64,000 bases of DNA from a virus (lineage: Duplodnaviria > Caudoviricetes). Shown here in pieces: positions 32,770-48,905 of this stretch (position 1 is the stretch's first letter; each line of letters begins with the position of its first letter). The stretch lies in the IMG/VR virus record IMGVR_UViG_3300031555_004349, positions 54,134-118,133 of that record; one strand, 5' to 3'. A program made the position numbers and the translations under genes. The notes beneath the pieces are model-generated. The model made no database searches and was not told the origin of the DNA. It saw only the letters and a program-made list of their open reading frames with translations.

Positions 32770-33109
32770 GGGGGTATATTTGGTTTCGACCCTTATTGGA
32801 GATAAAAATAAGCAAGTAGTGGTCAGACAGGACACTTTAAAAGTCTGAAAAAAAAATAAAAGCAAACGGTTTAATAGCTGCCTAGGCAGTAATTTAAATA
32901 TATCACCTCCTTTCTCGAAGTATTAAAAGGGCAAAAGTATTTTTAATGGCTATAATAAAATACTTTCACGGAAGAACATAGCTAATTAAATTTAAAAGAT
33001 TTTGTTTATTTTTCTTTAATTTAATTTGTTACATAAAATAAACTAAACTTGTAGAAAATTTTTGTTAAAGGTAAGTGGCACAGCAGTTCGATTCTGCTTA
33101 CCTCCACCA
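32770..33109 (+). ncRNA. ssrA: tmRNA
   Basis: 5' GGGGGTATATTTGGTTTCGAC; 3' T-arm AGCAGTTCGATTCTGCT + TACCTCC-ACCA with G3:U pair; tag ORF GCA AAC GGT TTA ATA GCT GCC TAG (ANGLIAA) at 32862-32885. Confidence 0.92.
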
Positions 33110-33114
33110 AAGAA

Positions 33115-33180
33115 AAGGCGCACACAGCATTAAATCCGCCGAATAGGCACTAAATTTGGGATTTAGCAATTTGCGCCTTG
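33115..33180 (+). ncRNA. Solitary AYACAGCA stem element (fifth unit of novel RNA motif)
   Basis: AAGGCGC-ACACAGCAT...GCGCCTT-G; inner TAAATCC/GGATTTA stem. Confidence 0.6.
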
Positions 33181-36068: not shown

Positions 36069-36624
36069 GGGCTCACACAGCAAAGTATTTTATCTTATTA
36101 GGTAAAAGAAGAATTTTGTAAGTTACATTTACAAAATATCCAAAAATGTGCTACTTTTGTAGCTCCAAATGGATTTAATGTGTTGTTTGCTTCAAGGTGC
36201 GGCGAGCCCAGTAAAATGCCAAAATCCTTGAAAACAATACATAAGGGACACACAGCAAATTAACTTCGGTTAAAACAATTAATAGTCTTTAAGACTATAG
36301 GAAGCAGTAAAATGAGGCATAGAACAGTAAATTTGCATTGCGCAGGTTTACTATGTATCTGAGCCGAGACTGTTGCGAGTACTGGTTAATGTCCCTAGTC
36401 GTTATATTGACAAGTACTCTATACACAGTTTTAATTAAGTTTATAATTTGTGGACATACAGCAATTTTATAATATTTTGGTTCTGATTTACAATCTGAAA
36501 AATAAATATTAGTCCGCAGTTTTAGAAAGGCACATACAGCAATTATACTTTCAAAAAGTTGGTTATCCTTGGTTCAATTCCAAGTCTTCGAGCCATTTCT
36601 TTCGAGGAATATTTGAGTGCCTTG
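36069..36624 (+). ncRNA. Array of four structured RNA units (6-bp stem + AYACAGCAA + variable interior + stem)
   Basis: Units 36069-36209 GGGCTC/GAGCCC, 36244-36396 AGGGAC/GTCCCT, 36450-36517 GTGGAC/GTCCGC, 36528-36622 AGGCAC/GTGCCT; each 5' strand followed by ACACAGCAA or ATACAGCAA. Confidence 0.75.
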
Positions 36625-36657
36625 TTTTATTTTAAAATAAGAAAATGGAGGTTTAGA

Positions 36658-38187
36658 ATGGAAGATATATTTTTAGCAAGTTTAAAAAGAGAGACAAATG
36701 AAGCAATTACAGAAAATGGAGCATTAGCTTTTAATTCAACAAATTCAAGTTTATTAGATTTATTTGGTACAATTGGCGCACTTAGAAATAGACCTTCATC
36801 AGACGTAATAGATAAATTCACAAAAGCATTTTCAGAAGATAAATTATTAGCTATGAAAATGTTATTTTATGCAAGAAATATTAGAGGTGGATTAGGAGAA
36901 AGAAAAGTTTTTCGTACTATAATTCATTATATGGCAAATGTTCACCCTGATGTTATGAAGAAAAATATTAACTTAGTTCCTTTTTTTGGAAGATGGGACG
37001 ATTTATATGAGTTTGTGGGAACGTCATTAGAAGATGATGCGTTTGATTTTATTACTGTTCAATTAGCTATAGATGAGACTTTTATGGCTCATAATAAACC
37101 TATTAGCTTAATGGCAAAATGGTTAAAATCAACTTCTGGAGTTTCTGTTGAGTCTGCTAAATTAGGTAAGTTAACTGCTAAAAAATTAGGTTTAACTTAT
37201 AAAGAATATAGACAAAAATTATCTAAATTAAGAAGTTATTTAAATATAGTAGAAACTAATATGAGTAATGATAAATGGAATGAAATCATTTATCGTGAAG
37301 TTCCCGCGCTAGCTATGAAAAAATATAGAAACGCATTTAAAGAACATAATTTAGTAGAATTCAAAGAGTACATTGAAAAAGTTAAAAAAGGTGAAGAAAC
37401 TATTAAAGCCGCAACTTTATATCCATATAATATTATGGAAAGTGCTGGTTTAAGAGATGACTATAATGGTAAATTAAAATTAAGAACTTGGGACGAAATA
37501 TTGGAAGAACAATGGAAAGCTTTACCTAATTATGTTGAAGGAGAAAACAATATAATGGTTATGGCTGATACTTCTGGTTCAATGTCTGGTAGACCTTTAG
37601 CTACTTCTGTTGGTTTAGCAATTTATTTCGCTGAAAGAAACCAAGGTCCTTATAAAGATAAATTTATTACCTTTGCAGGAGAACCAAAATACATTGAACT
37701 AAAAGGTACAAACTTAATGGAAAAAGTAGCTTGTATTCCTGAAATTAATACAAGAAATACTAATATAGAAGCAGCTTTTAATTTAATTTTAGATACTGCT
37801 ATTCATAATAATTTACCACAAGAAAGTCTACCAAAAGCAATTGTTATAATTTCAGATATGGAATTTGATAGTGCGGCTGACACAGATGCTTACAACTATT
37901 GGAGACGCTCAAGCTCAAATGAAGTAACTGAAAAACATAATAAATTAATGGAAGACTTAAATAATAAGTTTAGTGTAAATGGCTATAAAATGCCAAAAAT
38001 TATATATTGGAATGTTGATTCTAGAAATGATATTTATCACGCAACTTGTGAACAACACAATGTTGCTATGGTAAGTGGTCAATCTACATCTACATTTAAA
38101 ACTGTATTAAAGTCAATAGATGAAGATGCGTTTGAAATGATGATAAACACTTTAAGCGACCCAATGTATGATTTAGTTGAAGTATAA
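36658..38187 (+). CDS. DUF2828-family helical-repeat + vWA protein (Ro60/TROVE-like architecture)
   Basis: TENGA...STNSSLLDLF, RNIRGGLGER, GRWDDL, AKWL, MIDAS ADTSGSM, ISDMEFD, IYWNV; start at ATG 36658 with GGAGG. Confidence 0.8.
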   Translation: MEDIFLASLKRETNEAITENGALAFNSTNSSLLDLFGTIGALRNRPSSDVIDKFTKAFSEDKLLAMKMLFYARNIRGGLGERKVFRTIIHYMANVHPDVMKKNINLVPFFGRWDDLYEFVGTSLEDDAFDFITVQLAIDETFMAHNKPISLMAKWLKSTSGVSVESAKLGKLTAKKLGLTYKEYRQKLSKLRSYLNIVETNMSNDKWNEIIYREVPALAMKKYRNAFKEHNLVEFKEYIEKVKKGEETIKAATLYPYNIMESAGLRDDYNGKLKLRTWDEILEEQWKALPNYVEGENNIMVMADTSGSMSGRPLATSVGLAIYFAERNQGPYKDKFITFAGEPKYIELKGTNLMEKVACIPEINTRNTNIEAAFNLILDTAIHNNLPQESLPKAIVIISDMEFDSAADTDAYNYWRRSSSNEVTEKHNKLMEDLNNKFSVNGYKMPKIIYWNVDSRNDIYHATCEQHNVAMVSGQSTSTFKTVLKSIDEDAFEMMINTLSDPMYDLVEV

Positions 38188-41058: not shown

Positions 41059-41274
41059 AAATTTGATTTTCATTTAAAAATATAGTATAATTATATTATA
41101 GAAAAAAGAAAAGAGGTACTTAATATATACGCATTAAGTTAAATGTGAATAGCGATAAGTTCTAGCCTCTCTGCCATAGTGGGTACAATCGGCGAGGTAA
41201 CTCTTAAAGATATCCAATAGATGTCGTCGTTTCAATTATGAGTAATATAAAGGATTGGCTATGGAAGTTTATAT

Positions 41275-41493: not shown

Positions 41494-41794
41494 ATTAAAA
41501 GTTGATTTATATTACAATTTGCATTATAATATAAATATAAATTAGTTGAGAAAGCTCGTAAGCTAATTGGGTAGCTAACCTTGCTATATGTAAACTGCAA
41601 CTCGAGCAATGCAGGTCTCTAATGAGCCGAGAAAATGAAGTAGTGGAAGTCATGAGCCATGAATAAGTATCTCGCTATAATTGCAGTAAACTTTCTCGTA
41701 AAATCATAGGGAGGATTTCTAATTTCAGTCATCTTATGCGACATTTAGGGGACATAAGAGTAGTAGGTGGTCTACTTCAAAACCACATTTAAAT

Positions 41795-42229: not shown

Positions 42230-42305
42230 GGGTCACTAGCTCATCTGGTAGAGCACATCCCTTTTAAGGATGGGGTAGAAGGTTCAAGTCCTTCGTGACC
42301 CACCA
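42230..42305 (+). tRNA. tRNA-Lys(TTT)
   Basis: GGGTCAC/GTGACCC, loop CTTTTAA, CCA. Confidence 0.93.
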
Positions 42306-42339
42306 GCGCAGAGATGCGGTTCCTCTCTAAAAGGCCGCA

Positions 42340-42438
42340 AAGGAGTATACCCTTTCTTTATTCAAATTTGTCAAGCGAAGGTTCGAATCCTTCCTGCCTG
42401 GGAAACTGGGCGGTGGCAGAGAGGAAATTGCACTCCTT
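42340..42438 (+). ncRNA. Circularly permuted tRNA-like RNA (YrlA-type order T-arm, capped acceptor stem, D-arm)
   Basis: Closing AAGGAGT/ACTCCTT; GAAGG-TTCGAAT-CCTTC; CTGCCTGG-GAAA-CTGGGCGG; TG; GCA-GAGAGGAAAT-TGC. Confidence 0.7.
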
Positions 42439-42514
42439 CTTAATGAAGTGAGGTCTTGCAAGTTTGACTTTCTATAAAAATTGTTATATAATTATATTAT
42501 AGAAAGAAAGGAAA

Positions 42515-42868
42515 GTGATTAAAGTGATAGAATATTTTTGGGAATATGAATATAAGTTTGGCGAATTTTTACAAAAGATTTTTCCTAATACTTATAAAAG
42601 AAAATACTCTATGACAGGAAATGGAATTTATAATTTGGTAATTGTAAACGAGAAAGTTTATGAAATTAAATTATCACAAGCAGCTTCAATGTTAGAAGAT
42701 AATGGTAAATTTACAACAGATAATTTAAAAAATAAAATTATTCAAAATATAATTAATAACTTAAACGAAGGTACAAAATATACAGTTAATAATGGGAAAA
42801 TAACTTTCAAATTAGGCAAATTTGTAGCAAAAGTTGAAGTAATAAAGAAAGTAAAAATGCCCGAATAA
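42515..42868 (+). CDS. Hypothetical protein
   Basis: sigmaA promoter and RBS upstream. Confidence 0.55.
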   Translation: MIKVIEYFWEYEYKFGEFLQKIFPNTYKRKYSMTGNGIYNLVIVNEKVYEIKLSQAASMLEDNGKFTTDNLKNKIIQNIINNLNEGTKYTVNNGKITFKLGKFVAKVEVIKKVKMPE

Positions 42869-43107: not shown

Positions 43108-43318
43108 CATACATAAGGTGAGTGAAATGCGAAACAGCCTGTAATATGCGTTAGTTTACTAACCAAGCGGCTCTTGTAGCGAGAGAGTGTCAGCGAAGTA
43201 TAACCAGTAGCGGCTCACCAACAAATTTAATTTACCGAACGGTTCGAGTCCGTGACTGCCGGGAGACTGTGGAGGAGCTGTGAAAATCAGCTATAGGAAA
43301 GGTAAATTAAATTCAAAT

Positions 43319-43785
43319 GACCTTAATGTACTTACCTCCTCGTGGTAAGGTCGGGTAGCTCTAAAAAGTACAAAAACAATAATTGTTATGGCTGAATGCG
43401 CTATCAACGGCGTAAGGCACAGACCGAAGAAGTTGGAAGTGACTTCAAGTGAAATTCGATGGAAATATATTAGAGGTTTGGTTTCAAGAGTAATCTAACC
43501 GTGAGAAATTTAGGCTAAGCGGACACTCTGGCGAACTTGCTATTGCAAGACGAGTTGGGGTTGGGTTGAAAGTCGTGGCTTAGGCGCTAGCAGTAAAAGA
43601 TTCCCAAGATGAAGATTGATGGTTATCTTTACAGAGTTGAACTGTTAGTTAGGGGTATTCTGGAATCCCTTATAGAGTAATCTATTACTAATAAAGTGTA
43701 ACGAGGGCAAGTTAGGTTGAGATATGTAAAATTATTGTCAAAAGGTTTAACAGGAGATGCTTTCCTTTAAAAATAAAGCTTCTCA
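43319..43785 (+). ncRNA. Large ornate ncRNA candidate (ROOL/GOLLD-like)
   Basis: About 470 nt ORF-free and GC-richer; GACCTTA/TAAGGTC, TGTACT/AGTACA, GGTTTGGTT/AATCTAACC, long-range ACAATAATT(43376)/AATTATTGT(43730); inside tRNA cluster. Confidence 0.55.
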
Positions 43786-43795
43786 CTTTTTATAT

Positions 43796-43871: not shown

Positions 43872-44123
43872 CACTTTATAGCAAGTCAAGTGGAATTCAT
43901 TGTCTTAATAAGAGCTTGATACTACTATAATTTTAATAAACGCTGTGACGCACACAGAAAAACGCTGGTTAGGCGGAAATTCTAACTTGGCGGAGACACA
44001 TCTCTTACGCGCTATGAGTTGGAAACAGGTTTCGCGTATAATAAGTTAGAACCTGTTACTCTTTTTATAGTCCCATAAGTTGTGAACGAGTGATGGACTT
44101 TAAAAACCCACTCGGTAAGTTAT

Positions 44124-44371: not shown

Positions 44372-44789
44372 CCGAGGTTCGGATTAACCGATAATTCAGC
44401 TTGAAGTAATTAATCGGCTTAATTATACGAGGATAATCGAGTGAATTCTGACTCCGATAAATCTCCTCGGACCAATTTGGAATCTATCAGTCGGGTATCT
44501 AGTAATGGGATACTAATGATATAAGATAGCAAGAAAAGATGCTCAAAAGGCGGTGAGATAAGAGGGCTCTGCGACGAGGGTCTACCGCAATCCATAATCC
44601 ACCCAGTAGTTGAAAAGGAATTAACGCCAGAATATAAACTACCTTCGCCAACAGCGATGAAACATACGCGTCAAATGGGGAATGATAGCAGGTTAGCATC
44701 AAACCGTATGTGGTAATAAACTCTTATTAGTGGGCCGAGGGGCGCACTCCAAAATAAATTTCCTATTTTCCTATGTGAAAGGAGTTTCT

Positions 44790-45529: not shown

Positions 45530-45784
45530 TAGATTATTTAAAGGTTACTTGGTCACCCTTAATTCTTACCTTTCTAGAAGGTGAAATCAAGTTCTGCAAA
45601 GCTAGCAAAAAGAATTAAATAATCTAACCACGGCCACAAAGGTAGTTTAGTACCTGCCGACTCAAACTGCGTGTTTAAGGTAATCGCGCAGGACGACATG
45701 AAAACCTTACTAAACTAACGGGTTAGGCTTATAGAGTTGATTGGTTCCTGTGAAATAAAGAAAAATGTAACTCTCACCATTTAT

Positions 45785-45980: not shown

Positions 45981-46053
45981 CTTCGCCTATGTAGCTTAGA
46001 TGGTTAGAGCGCTATTTATAGAGACACAGGTTCAAATCCTGGCTTAGGCGAAG
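45981..46053 (+). ncRNA. tRNA-like RNA with truncated anticodon arm, extended acceptor and no CCA
   Basis: CTTCGCCTA/TAGGCGAAG; D-arm TAGCTTAGATGGTTAGAGC; mini arm CTATTTATAG; CAGG-TTCAAAT-CCTG. Confidence 0.6.
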
Positions 46054-46197: not shown

Positions 46198-46258
46198 TGT
46201 TTATTTGACATTTGATAAAAATTATAGTATAATAGTATTATAAATAGGAGGAATATAA

Positions 46259-47993: not shown

Positions 47994-48905
47994 ATGACTT
48001 TTGAAAGATACCAACATATATGTAAAGTGGGTTCAGATGATGTAGAAGATATAGAATTTGGAACTTGTTATGTATTTCCAAAATTAGATGGAACCAATAC
48101 TTCTGTTTGGTTAGAAGAAGGAGAAATAAAAGTAGGTTCAAGAAACAGAATTTTATCATTAGAAAATGATAATCAAGGTGCTTGTGAAGTTATATCTAAT
48201 GACCCTCGTATAAAAAAGTTTTTGAAAAAATATCCAAATATAAGATTGTATGGAGAATTTTTAGTAAGACATACAATAACAACTTATAGAGATGACGCTT
48301 GGAGAAAGTTTTATATATTTGATGTTGTAGATGGACAAGAGGATATAGAAGAATTAGCTATACCACATTATTTATCATATGAAGAATATCAACCAATGTT
48401 GGAAGAATTCAATTTAGATTATATTCCTTTAACTCAAAAAATAAAAAATCCGGAATATGAAAACTTATTACACTGCGCGCAAACAAATACCTTCTTAATA
48501 AAAGATGGCGAAGGTGTAGGTGAAGGTATAGTTATAAAAAGATATGATTATATAAACAAATACGGAAGAAGAGTTTGGGCTAAAATAGTTTTAAATGAAT
48601 TTAAAGAGAAACATAAGAAAGTAATGGGCGCTGATGAGTTAGAAAACAGAATATTTGAAGACGAATTAGTACAAGATTTCTTAACTGATGAATTTATAGA
48701 AAAAGAGTATGCAAAAATCAAAGCATTAGAAGGTGGTTGGAATTCAAGATATATACCAAGATTATTAAGCACTGTATATTCAGAGTTTATAAAAGATTAT
48801 AGCTGGGATATAGTTAAGAAATATAAAAATCCAAAAATAGATTTTAAAAGATTACAAGTTTATGTATTTAATAGAGTAAAAGTTGTAAAATCTGAATTAT
48901 TCTAG
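47994..48905 (+). CDS. RNA ligase (Rnl2-like nucleotidyltransferase)
   Basis: PKLDGTN, GSRNR, LYGEF, FDV, EGIVIK, WAKIV; no OB-fold C-terminus. Confidence 0.75.
   Translation: MTFERYQHICKVGSDDVEDIEFGTCYVFPKLDGTNTSVWLEEGEIKVGSRNRILSLENDNQGACEVISNDPRIKKFLKKYPNIRLYGEFLVRHTITTYRDDAWRKFYIFDVVDGQEDIEELAIPHYLSYEEYQPMLEEFNLDYIPLTQKIKNPEYENLLHCAQTNTFLIKDGEGVGEGIVIKRYDYINKYGRRVWAKIVLNEFKEKHKKVMGADELENRIFEDELVQDFLTDEFIEKEYAKIKALEGGWNSRYIPRLLSTVYSEFIKDYSWDIVKKYKNPKIDFKRLQVYVFNRVKVVKSELF

What the first reader, a model, noticed from the sequence alone, without database searches (positions are those of the whole stretch)
42340..42438. Circularly permuted tRNA mimic with YrlA-type topology
Seen order: closing stem AAGGAGT, T-arm with TTCGAAT loop, 8-bp acceptor-like stem capped by a GAAA tetraloop, UG linker, D-arm with GG in the loop, then ACTCCTT closing strand. 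Established: bacterial YrlA Y RNAs have this T-arm, capped acceptor stem, D-arm order. The 5' stem strand is followed by ATAC, echoing the array handle. Inference: a Y-RNA-like partner of the DUF2828 protein, or a non-chargeable decoy for tRNA-targeting host defences.
Basis: partly seen in the sequence, partly recalled or inferred. Interest (0 to 1): 0.8.

Follow-up and report, generated by a model that had tools for sequence, protein, structure and literature searches.

The report
Inside-out tRNA look-alike in phage
At the end of one of this gut phage's tRNA operons lies a gene for a small RNA built like a tRNA with its normal ends sealed and opened elsewhere; it resembles the bacterial "Y RNA" YrlA, but it lacks the docking motif that related phage RNAs use for the Ro60-like protein, so its partner is unknown.

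Summary
A T arm, an 8-bp GAAA-capped acceptor-like stem, UG and a D arm occupy 42376-42432.

- **Core is real.** A covariance model built only from four other phage contigs finds it at 47.8 bits (E about 1e-11). Across 23 such units the capped stem covaries (152 of 161 pairs canonical).
- **Closure is doubtful.** The best fold of 42360-42470 is a complete permuted cloverleaf. It is closed by a 13-bp helix (42362-75 with 42455-67) and has an anticodon-like hairpin (42433-52); z is -3.1. The true span is therefore about 42362-42467.
- **Not Rfam YrlA.** The model gives no hit, and there is no GNCGAA motif or TROVE gene.
- **Ro60-like neighbour.** The DUF2828 protein 4.15 kb upstream on the same strand is predicted to fold like Ro60.
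- **Missing handle.** Every such unit inspected near a DUF2828 gene in other phages carries a closing stem plus a CAGCAA handle. This one has only AUAC.

Verdict: a real, non-decoding tRNA mimic of YrlA type. Pairing with DUF2828 is plausible but unproven. This scan has noted the kind in over 200 other genomes. No orthologue or RNA data were found.

The parts
42362..42375 (+). 5' strand of the 13-bp outer helix (UCAAAUUUG-U-CAAG, U42371 bulged). It occupies the variable-arm position of the permuted cloverleaf.
   Evidence: Minimum-energy and centroid fold of 42360-42470. It is also recovered when only the T, acceptor-like and D stems are enforced.
42376..42393 (+). C48 equivalent plus the T arm GAAGG-UUCGAAU-CCUUC.
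   Evidence: Sequence; partial Rfam tRNA match to model positions 43-63; model R1.
42394..42413 (+). Acceptor-like stem of 8 bp (three G-U pairs) closed by a GAAA tetraloop. There is no free 3' end and no CCA.
   Evidence: Pair probabilities about 1.0 for the six pairs nearest the loop, 0.13 and 0.50 for the two outermost. The equivalent stem covaries across 23 units, 152 of 161 pairs canonical.
42414..42432 (+). U8-G9 linker, D arm GCAG-AGAGGAAA-UUGC (A14, G15, G18, G19, A21) and A26.
   Evidence: Model R1 alignment. The D arm forms in the unconstrained fold of 42360-42470 but not in the folds.
42433..42452 (+). Anticodon-like hairpin CUC-CUUC / GAAG-U-GAG with loop UUAAU. If the last pair opens the loop is CUUAAUG (UAA-like, U at position 37). 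It is not a canonical 5-bp stem with a 7-nt loop.
   Evidence: Folds. ARAGORN on the computationally un-permuted sequence calls an odd-loop or Leu(UAA)-like tRNA.
42455..42467 (+). 3' strand of the outer helix (CUUGCAAGUUUGA). It overlaps the -35 box of the next promoter.
42340..42350 (+). It can instead form a local hairpin AAAGG-AGUAUAC-CCUUU.
   Evidence: Sequence and folds. A perfect 7-mer complement in about 60 upstream positions is expected about 0.004 times (my estimate). The same kind of closure is seen in the TROVE-linked unit L035.
36658..38187 (+). DUF2828 + DUF7788/vWA protein, predicted Ro60-like fold. It is the candidate protein partner, 4.15 kb upstream on the same strand.
   Evidence: Pfam. 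Homologues begin at residue 34 of the longer ORF. AlphaFold2 pLDDT 91.8. The top 13 PDB matches are all Ro60/TROVE proteins.
41502..41530 (+). Likely promoter (TTGATT-17-TATAAT) of the operon tRNA-Asp, tRNA-Ala, tRNA-Lys, element.
   Evidence: Consensus scan, with no terminator-like site before the element. Inference only.
42464..42492 (+). Promoter-like site TTGACT-17-TATAAT for ORF 42515-42868. It marks the downstream limit of the element.
   Evidence: 11 of 12 consensus positions.

Best explanation
The locus encodes a roughly 105-nt non-coding RNA (about 42362-42467). It is a circularly permuted, acceptor-closed tRNA look-alike.

**Shown**
- The T arm, GAAA-capped acceptor-like stem and D arm can build a tRNA elbow.
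- The natural tRNA ends are sealed.
- The RNA chain opens at the base of a terminal helix.

**Inferred**
- It is transcribed with tRNA-Asp, tRNA-Ala and tRNA-Lys from the promoter at 41502 and then cut out of the precursor.
- It cannot be charged or decode. There is no CCA, although the 21 ARAGORN-called tRNAs and the tmRNA of this phage all encode CCA. It also has no canonical anticodon loop.
- It acts as a tRNA mimic, as in YrlA-type Y RNAs. It would offer a tRNA-shaped surface to tRNA-binding enzymes, probably within the phage's Ro60-like (DUF2828) RNA system.
- Because it lacks the CAGCAA handle, it may bind that protein weakly, indirectly or not at all.
For: - **Core match.** Model R1, built from other phages, scores the core at 47.8 bits. 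It is the only such unit in the 118-kb genome.
- **Covariation.** The capped stem covaries in 23 units.
- **Fold.** The unconstrained fold is a complete cloverleaf with z -3.1.
- **Composition.** GC is 47% (core 56%) against 30% for the window. Only 0.17% of 106-nt windows in the coding part reach that level.
- **Protein neighbour.** DUF2828 is predicted to fold like Ro60.
- **Association.** Units without a canonical anticodon arm occur with DUF2828 (window, L025, L027) or TROVE genes (L026, L031, L035). None of 12 non-member control records has either gene.
- **Position.** In 80 DUF2828 loci such units lie 0.3-5.6 kb from the gene, all but one on the same strand. This element is 4.15 kb downstream on the same strand.
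- **Link to YrlA.** The Rfam YrlA model weakly recognises (25.6 bits) a unit of the same design beside a TROVE gene.
- **CCA.** The 21 ARAGORN-called tRNAs and the tmRNA all end in CCA; the element has none.
Against: - The CAGCAA handle is present in every unit I inspected beside other DUF2828 genes and in five units of this phage. It is absent here.
- Units with the same core occur in complete phage genomes with no DUF2828 or TROVE gene (G005, G008, G010). The design therefore does not need a Ro60-like protein.
- Three mutually exclusive folds compete.
- No orthologue was found, so this copy has no covariation evidence of its own.
- There are no expression data.
- The association counts are small and many control records are fragments.
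Confidence: 0.5

Rival explanations
1. Decaying relic. The element would be a former CAGCAA-handle Y-like RNA, or a former permuted tRNA gene, that has lost its handle or anticodon loop and no longer functions.
For: - The handle is reduced to AUAC, and there is no A-rich spacer or U-rich tail.
- The anticodon-like arm is non-canonical.
- The element resembles handle unit 4 (36527-36625) only weakly (z 1.95).
- No orthologue was found.
Against: - All tertiary-contact positions of the elbow are intact.
- The 8-bp stem, the 13-bp helix and the 7-bp complement are unbroken.
- GC is far above the genome's.
- The sequence is identical, or differs by one letter, in contigs from three animal-gut metagenomes.
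Confidence: 0.2
2. Stand-alone decoy or competitor. The closed tRNA shape would titrate a host tRNA-directed factor (defence nuclease, RNase P, modification or CCA-adding enzyme) without help from DUF2828.
For: - Units with the same core exist in complete phage genomes without any Ro60-like gene.
- The handle is absent here.
- It lies inside a tRNA operon of a phage rich in RNA-repair genes, including an RNA ligase at 47994-48905.
Against: - No defence target can be named.
- The anticodon loop, the usual target of anticodon nucleases, is not mimicked.
- The units in Ro60-free genomes mostly keep canonical anticodon arms, so they may be a different functional class.
Confidence: 0.17
3. True permuted tRNA gene. 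RNase P and 3' trimming would open the GAAA cap, CCA would be added, and the two pieces held by the 13-bp helix would act as a chargeable Leu(UAA)-like tRNA. This parallels two-piece tmRNA and the cleaved, CCA-tailed M. smegmatis YrlA.
For: - Once computationally un-permuted, ARAGORN calls it tRNA-like (Leu-UAA or an odd loop).
- Sister units in other phages give clean tRNA calls with canonical anticodon arms.
- M. smegmatis YrlA, with a 7-bp acceptor-like stem, is cleaved by RNase P in vitro and carries an added CCA in vivo (PMC4201824).
- The phage encodes an RNA ligase.
Against: - The stem has 7 bp with a bulge, and the loop has 5 nt (or 7 nt with U37).
- The cap lacks the UAUAU-type leader that precedes most true tRNAs here, and there is no encoded CCA.
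- The phage already has tRNA-Leu(UAA).
Confidence: 0.08
4. Chance resemblance, or a junction of two ordinary tRNA fragments, with no RNA gene.
For: - Junctions of neighbouring tRNAs can mimic the T arm then D arm order (noted by Chen et al.).
- One such junction scores 25.3 bits in this window.
Against: - The score is 47.8 bits against 25.3 for the junction.
- The 8-bp stem pairs the 3' and 5' acceptor strands.
- ARAGORN finds no overlapping tRNA.
- Two further long complementarities flank the core.
Confidence: 0.03

Closest known systems
YrlA (Y RNA-like A; Rfam RF02553), partner of bacterial and mycobacteriophage Ro60/Rsr (Chen et al. 2014, PMC4201824)
   Same: - Same order of T arm, loop-capped acceptor-like stem and D arm inside a terminal helix.
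- tRNA tertiary positions are conserved.
- It lies on the same strand as, and a few kb from, a gene whose product is predicted to fold like Ro60.
   Different: - No match to the Rfam model.
- No GNCGAAN0-1G motif.
- The neighbouring protein is DUF2828, not TROVE by sequence.
- It sits inside a tRNA operon.
- It has an extra anticodon-like hairpin and an alternative closure at the variable-arm position.
CAGCAA-handle RNAs beside DUF2828 genes in phages. I found no paper describing them. I saw them here in IMG/VR contigs, Bacillus phage Tsamsa and Listeria phage LMTA-34.
   Same: - The same core of T arm, capped stem and D arm is carried by many members.
- A 7-bp stem is followed by AUA.
- Same strand and the same distance range from the DUF2828 gene.
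   Different: - It lacks the defining CAGCAA.
- It lacks the A-rich spacer after the D arm.
- It lacks the U-rich tail.
Circularly permuted tRNA genes of Cyanidioschyzon merolae and relatives (from my own knowledge; mentioned in PMC3400036)
   Same: The 3' half (T arm, 3' acceptor strand) lies upstream of the 5' half (5' acceptor strand, D arm), joined by a short linker at the acceptor ends.
   Different: - It is in a bacterial virus.
- It has no canonical anticodon arm.
- No bulge-helix-bulge motif or splicing endonuclease is evident.
- No CCA-ready discriminator context.
phiRo60 with Yrl1 and Yrl2 of Thermus phage phiLo (PMC12135203; PDB 9KOP, 9L5Y)
   Same: It is a phage-encoded Ro60-fold protein with phage-encoded partner RNAs. 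9KOP and 9L5Y are among the best structural matches of the DUF2828 model.
   Different: The phiLo RNAs were identified by a stem-bulge-stem shape with a CGAA motif and lie directly upstream of the gene. No tRNA-like module is reported for them.
Two-piece (permuted) tmRNA genes (from my own knowledge)
   Same: A bacterial precedent for a gene with the order T arm, 3' acceptor strand, linker, 5' acceptor strand.
   Different: - No tag reading frame or pseudoknots.
- ARAGORN reports only the standard tmRNA at 32770-33109 (Rfam).
- The D arm is fully formed.

Membership tests
YrlA (Rfam RF02553; Chen et al. 2014) | T arm with a tRNA-like loop, then a loop-capped acceptor-like stem, then a D arm, in that 5' to 3' order | tested here: met
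   Sequence, model R1 at 47.8 bits, fold. The order matches the paper's description.
YrlA (Rfam RF02553; Chen et al. 2014) | Score at or above the Rfam gathering threshold (69 bits) | tested here: not met
   No YrlA hit on 42250-42550 at E up to 10. The best hits in the whole genome are 14.8 bits, at tRNA junctions elsewhere. The model is weak for phage units: 25.6 bits on a TROVE-adjacent unit in L031.
YrlA (Rfam RF02553; Chen et al. 2014) | GNCGAAN0-1G motif near the 5' end (presumed Ro60 contact) | tested here: not met
   By eye, none in 42306-42376. The only CGAA lies inside C48 and the T stem.
YrlA (Rfam RF02553; Chen et al. 2014) | Encoded within about 4 kb of a TROVE-domain Ro60 gene on the same strand | tested here: inconclusive
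   No TROVE Pfam match in the genome. A DUF2828 protein with a predicted Ro60 fold ends 4,153 nt upstream on the same strand.
YrlA (Rfam RF02553; Chen et al. 2014) | Bound by Ro60, and carrying tRNA-type modifications (pseudouridine 55, dihydrouridine) | not testable with these tools
   This needs immunoprecipitation and modification mapping.
CAGCAA-handle RNAs linked to DUF2828 | Terminal stem of 6-8 bp joining the 5' and 3' ends | tested here: inconclusive
   A perfect 7-bp complement exists (42340-46 with 42432-38). A 13-bp helix and a hairpin that exclude it are about 11 kcal/mol better.
CAGCAA-handle RNAs linked to DUF2828 | Unpaired NN(N)CAGCAA (rarely CAGCGA) directly after the 5' stem strand | tested here: not met
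   Here the sequence reads AUACCCUUUC. All nine handle-family units in alignment A5 have the motif, and a tenth, L025 4303, is shown. The five units at 33122, 36075, 36250, 36456 and 36534 have it too.
CAGCAA-handle RNAs linked to DUF2828 | Same strand as, and within a few kb of, a DUF2828 gene | tested here: met
   It is 4.15 kb downstream on the same strand. Family members lie 0.3-5.6 kb away.
Circularly permuted tRNA gene | Complete cloverleaf in permuted order, including a canonical anticodon arm (5-bp stem, 7-nt loop, U33, purine 37) | tested here: not met
   No canonical arm upstream or downstream. The hairpin 42433-52 has 7 bp with a bulge and a 5-nt loop. ARAGORN on the computationally un-permuted sequence gives odd-loop or Leu-UAA calls.
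Circularly permuted tRNA gene | Processing to a linear tRNA with a free CCA end | not testable with these tools
   No RNA data. There is no encoded CCA and no UAUAU-type leader at the cap.
tRNA (RF00005) and permuted tmRNA | Match to the tRNA model, or an ARAGORN tRNA or tmRNA call | tested here: not met
   Only a 14.9-bit partial match to the T arm. ARAGORN reports nothing between 42305 and 43796.

The most novel reading that the evidence does not exclude
The element, and more clearly its sister units with intact anticodon arms in other phages, would be genuine circularly permuted tRNA genes of bacterial viruses. RNase P would open the capped acceptor stem and CCA would be added. The result would be a two-piece tRNA held together by the terminal helix, chargeable yet differently built from the tRNAs that host defence nucleases target.
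Probability: 0.07. Interest if true: 0.85.

Novelty: new variant of a known kind. Interest (0 to 1): 0.55.

Why it matters
Ro60 and its Y RNAs are a conserved RNA-surveillance particle, and what the tRNA-like domain of bacterial Y RNAs binds is still unknown.

Phages carrying DUF2828 proteins appear to hold an unlisted branch of this system. A preprint reports that the Ro60-like gp130 of phage Bas63, whose membership of DUF2828 I did not test, counters the ppl defence.

This copy separates the tRNA-shaped module from the CAGCAA handle within one genome that also has handle-only units. That makes it a natural test of which part docks the protein and which part acts as the effector.

It also shows that gene finders miss tRNA-derived RNAs inside phage tRNA arrays.

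Tried and rejected
- **Orthologues for covariation in this copy.** None found.
  - The neighbouring ORF gave one distant locus without the element.
  - DNA similarity to phage records hit only tRNA-Ala.
  - Exact and degenerate patterns gave nothing in metagenome contigs or viral contigs.
  - The single-protein DUF2828 scan also gave nothing.
- **Sequencing runs.** No RNA holder is listed. Contigs from animal-gut metagenomes cover the element with 0-1 differences, so they carry no informative variation.
- **Rfam at relaxed thresholds.** Only a partial T-arm hit and sub-threshold noise, including HTH-XRE at 19.6 bits against a cut-off of 49.8.
- **PDB sequence searches for DUF2828.** The single-sequence and profile searches were uninformative. 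Only the fold search was informative.
- **Recent copy of one of the phage's own tRNAs.** Rejected. The best score, 53.5, is to the neighbouring tRNA-Lys, within the tRNA-to-tRNA background (mean 45.8, maximum 81). Only the T stem is identical.
- **AAGGAG as a ribosome-binding site.** Rejected. There is no start codon at a usable distance.
- **A handle-like CAGCGC formed by the CCA end of tRNA-Lys (42303).** Judged likely chance.

Full report
**Context.** The window is part of a complete 118-kb phage genome with terminal repeats, from IMG/VR. GC is about 30%. It carries 21 tRNA genes and a tmRNA. Near-identical DNA occurs in animal faecal and gut metagenomes. The finding lies between tRNA-Lys (42230-42305) and a near-consensus promoter (TTGACT-17-TATAAT, 42464-92) for ORF 42515-42868. 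There is no terminator-like site between the upstream promoter at 41502 and the element. Co-transcription with tRNA-Asp, tRNA-Ala and tRNA-Lys is therefore the simplest expectation. This is an inference.

**Observation.** The core 42376-42432 also carries the nucleotides that build a tRNA elbow. By eye these are U8, G9, A14, G15 with C48, G18 G19, A21, and the T loop UUCGAAU.

To test whether this is more than chance, I scanned IMG/VR for the T loop, a GAAA and UGGC at the right spacing, without requiring any pairing. Nine of about 22 distinct hits had six or more contiguous pairs flanking GAAA. My estimate of the chance expectation is about 0.003 per hit.

I built covariance model R1 from four of these foreign loci only. 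It finds the element at 47.8 bits, E about 1e-11. It is the only such unit in the whole genome. A tRNA-Tyr/tRNA-Gln junction is the runner-up at 25.3 bits. R1 also recovered units with other caps that the pattern could not have found. Across 23 units the seven acceptor-like pairs are canonical in 152 of 161 cases, with four to six pair types per position. The capped stem is therefore a selected structure.

**Anatomy.** With upstream sequence added, a competing pairing of 42316-28 with the D-arm region gives the overall minimum of -53.7 kcal/mol.

Folding 42360-42470 gives, without constraints, a complete four-arm cloverleaf at -39.2 kcal/mol. The centroid fold is the same and z is -3.12. Its parts are:
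- a 13-bp helix, 42362-75 with 42455-67, with U42371 bulged
- the T arm
- the 8-bp capped stem
- the D arm
- a hairpin at 42433-52

With only the three core stems enforced in the 170-nt context, this architecture reaches -51.4 kcal/mol. The element is thus best described as a cloverleaf opened in the variable arm, spanning about 42362-42467.

The 7-bp complement is itself unlikely by chance (about 0.004, my estimate). A TROVE-linked unit, L035, uses exactly this kind of closure. I therefore keep it as an alternative conformer.

The hairpin at 42433-52 is not a canonical anticodon arm. It has 7 bp with a bulge and a 5-nt loop, or a 7-nt loop CUUAAUG with U37. The cap has no CCA and no UAUAU-type leader. 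The 21 ARAGORN-called tRNAs and the tmRNA all encode CCA, and most have such a leader.

**What the relatives show.** The units fall into two groups.

*Group 1: canonical anticodon arm present.* The arm sits exactly where a permuted tRNA would have it. It lies either just after position 26 (L019, L006, two units in L007) or just upstream of the T arm (the third L007 unit, L016, and also L025 4514, which carries the CAGCAA handle and lies in a DUF2828 genome). Three perfect 5-bp arms at offset 0 among 15 units compares with 0.0027 per position by chance. When I computationally un-permuted them, ARAGORN called tRNA-Leu(UAA), Leu(UAG), Arg(ACG), Gly(ACC) and a UUA suppressor. I found no Ro60-like gene in the L019, L006, L007 and L016 records; two of those records are incomplete.

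*Group 2: no canonical anticodon arm.* These lie in genomes that encode a Ro60-like protein:
- DUF2828 in the window, L025 and L027
- TROVE in L026, L031 and L035, with the units in L031 and L035 directly upstream of the gene on the same strand

None of 12 control records from the same pattern scan has either gene, though many are fragments.

The Rfam YrlA model weakly recognises (25.6 bits against a cut-off of 69) a TROVE-adjacent unit that R1 also finds. This links the design to YrlA. It also shows that the Rfam model is too narrow for phage versions.

**The protein.** ORF 36559-38187 matches DUF2828, DUF7788 and vWA. Homologues start at residue 34, so the start is 36658. An AlphaFold2 model built from 48 sequences has pLDDT 91.8. 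Its 13 best PDB matches are full-length Ro60/TROVE proteins. They include Xenopus Ro, Deinococcus Rsr and the Ro60 of Thermus phage phiLo (E 2e-8 to 1.5e-4, TM 0.43-0.58). The genome has no TROVE match by sequence.

**The handle.** Starting from 80 IMG/VR loci that encode DUF2828 relatives, R1 found at least ten non-tRNA units. All but one are on the gene's strand, 0.3-5.6 kb away. Every one I inspected has a 6-8-bp closing stem followed by two to four bases and then CAGCAA (once CAGCGA). Most then have an A-rich spacer after the D arm and a U-rich tail.

Arrays of the same handle sit directly upstream of the DUF2828 genes of Bacillus phage Tsamsa and Listeria phage LMTA-34. They also sit upstream of this phage's own gene and after its tmRNA.

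The element under study reads AAGGAGU-AUAC-CCUUUC. It shares the stem and AUA but not CAGCAA, and it has neither the spacer nor the tail. It is the only complete unit of T arm, capped stem and D arm in the genome. The five handle units carry at most a T arm plus a capped stem (unit 4).

**Explanation and odds.**
- **Most likely (0.5):** a functional, non-decoding tRNA mimic of YrlA type, made from the tRNA operon transcript. Its link to DUF2828 is supported by association but weakened by the missing handle.
- **Relic (0.2).**
- **Ro60-independent decoy or competitor (0.17).**
- **True permuted, two-piece tRNA (0.08).**
- **Chance (0.03).**

**Comparison with what is known.** YrlA RNAs next to TROVE Ro60 genes are known in bacteria and 22 phages (PMC4201824). 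Phage phiLo Ro60 binds two phage RNAs (PMC12135203). A preprint found that the Ro60-like gp130 of phage Bas63 counters the ppl defence. Its authors guessed that some neighbouring 'tRNAs' are Y RNAs (10.1101/2024.10.10.617714). I did not test whether gp130 is a DUF2828 protein.

My five literature searches on these topics found no paper linking DUF2828 to an RNA partner or describing permuted tRNA-like genes in bacteriophages. Earlier notes of this scan record the same kind of element in more than 200 genomes and the CAGCAA/DUF2828 pairing in more than 125. This is therefore a further, atypical instance and not a first sighting. Those notes also point to the Class I RNAs of dictyostelids. The paper describes a 6-bp terminal stem plus an adjacent 11-nt motif with conserved C, C, A, A at positions 6, 9, 10 and 11, which fits CAGCAA (PMC7919456). 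That bears on the handle, which this element lacks.

Noticed in passing
window 36069-36625 and 33115-33180; L038 2470-2930; L039 2710-2980: Units of the form 'closing stem + (A/U)(A/C)ACAGCAA + variable interior' lie directly upstream of DUF2828 genes in this phage, in Bacillus phage Tsamsa and in Listeria phage LMTA-34. Each array sits behind its own promoter. One further unit follows this phage's tmRNA.
   Followed up: partly
L007 2860-3640 (minus strand): An array of five cassettes. Each is flanked by an outer stem, an internal loop CCUACAG / (U)ACGACU, a 4-5-bp inner stem and AUACA. The cargo is one ordinary tRNA, three permuted tRNA-like units with anticodons UUA, ACC and ACG, and one empty cassette. 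No Ro60-like gene was found in this 71%-complete record.
   Followed up: partly
window 43224-43312: A perfect 13-bp stem (AATTTAATTTACC / GGTAAATTAAATT) encloses a T-arm-like hairpin ACGG-TTCGAGT-CCGT and a second hairpin (z -2.1). Model R1 scores it at only 9.5 bits.
   Followed up: no
window 43110-43795, 43872-44123, 44372-44730, 45530-45784: Long spacers without ORFs of 60 aa or more, which looked GC-richer than the genome by eye (not measured), lie between tRNA genes. None has an Rfam match at E up to 1. They may hold further structured RNAs.
   Followed up: no
window, 5' flanks of the 21 ARAGORN-called tRNAs and the tmRNA: Most tRNA genes and the tmRNA gene are preceded by a UAUAU, UAAAU or UUUAU leader (tRNA-Ala by UUAUAC), and all of them encode CCA. 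A 22nd tRNA found only by Rfam (45985-46050) has neither. The AUAC that follows several closing stems may be related to this leader.
   Followed up: partly
window 45985-46050: A tRNA found by Rfam (44.7 bits) is missed by ARAGORN and lacks an encoded CCA.
   Followed up: no
L002 5200-5760: A tRNA gene (anticodon region UUUGUUC, Thr-UGU-like) is interrupted by an insert of about 460 nt that holds an ORF. The 3' half resumes at about 5700 and ends in CCA. It looks like an intron or a homing-endonuclease insertion.
   Followed up: no
window 36559-36657: The mechanical ORF of the DUF2828 gene starts at TTG 36559. All 150 homologues align from about residue 34, so the real start is ATG 36658, and the last handle unit lies in the leader.
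   Followed up: yes
window 42468-42506, with similar sequence near 41085-41105 and 46215-46245: The phage promoters share a TATAGTATAAT-like -10 region. A 10-bp inverted repeat (CTTTCTATAA / TTATAGAAAG) overlaps the promoter and may be an operator.
   Followed up: no
window 42301-42356: A sub-threshold Rfam match to HTH-XRE RNA (19.6 bits, cut-off 49.8) covers a local hairpin AAAGG-AGUAUAC-CCUUU.
   Followed up: no
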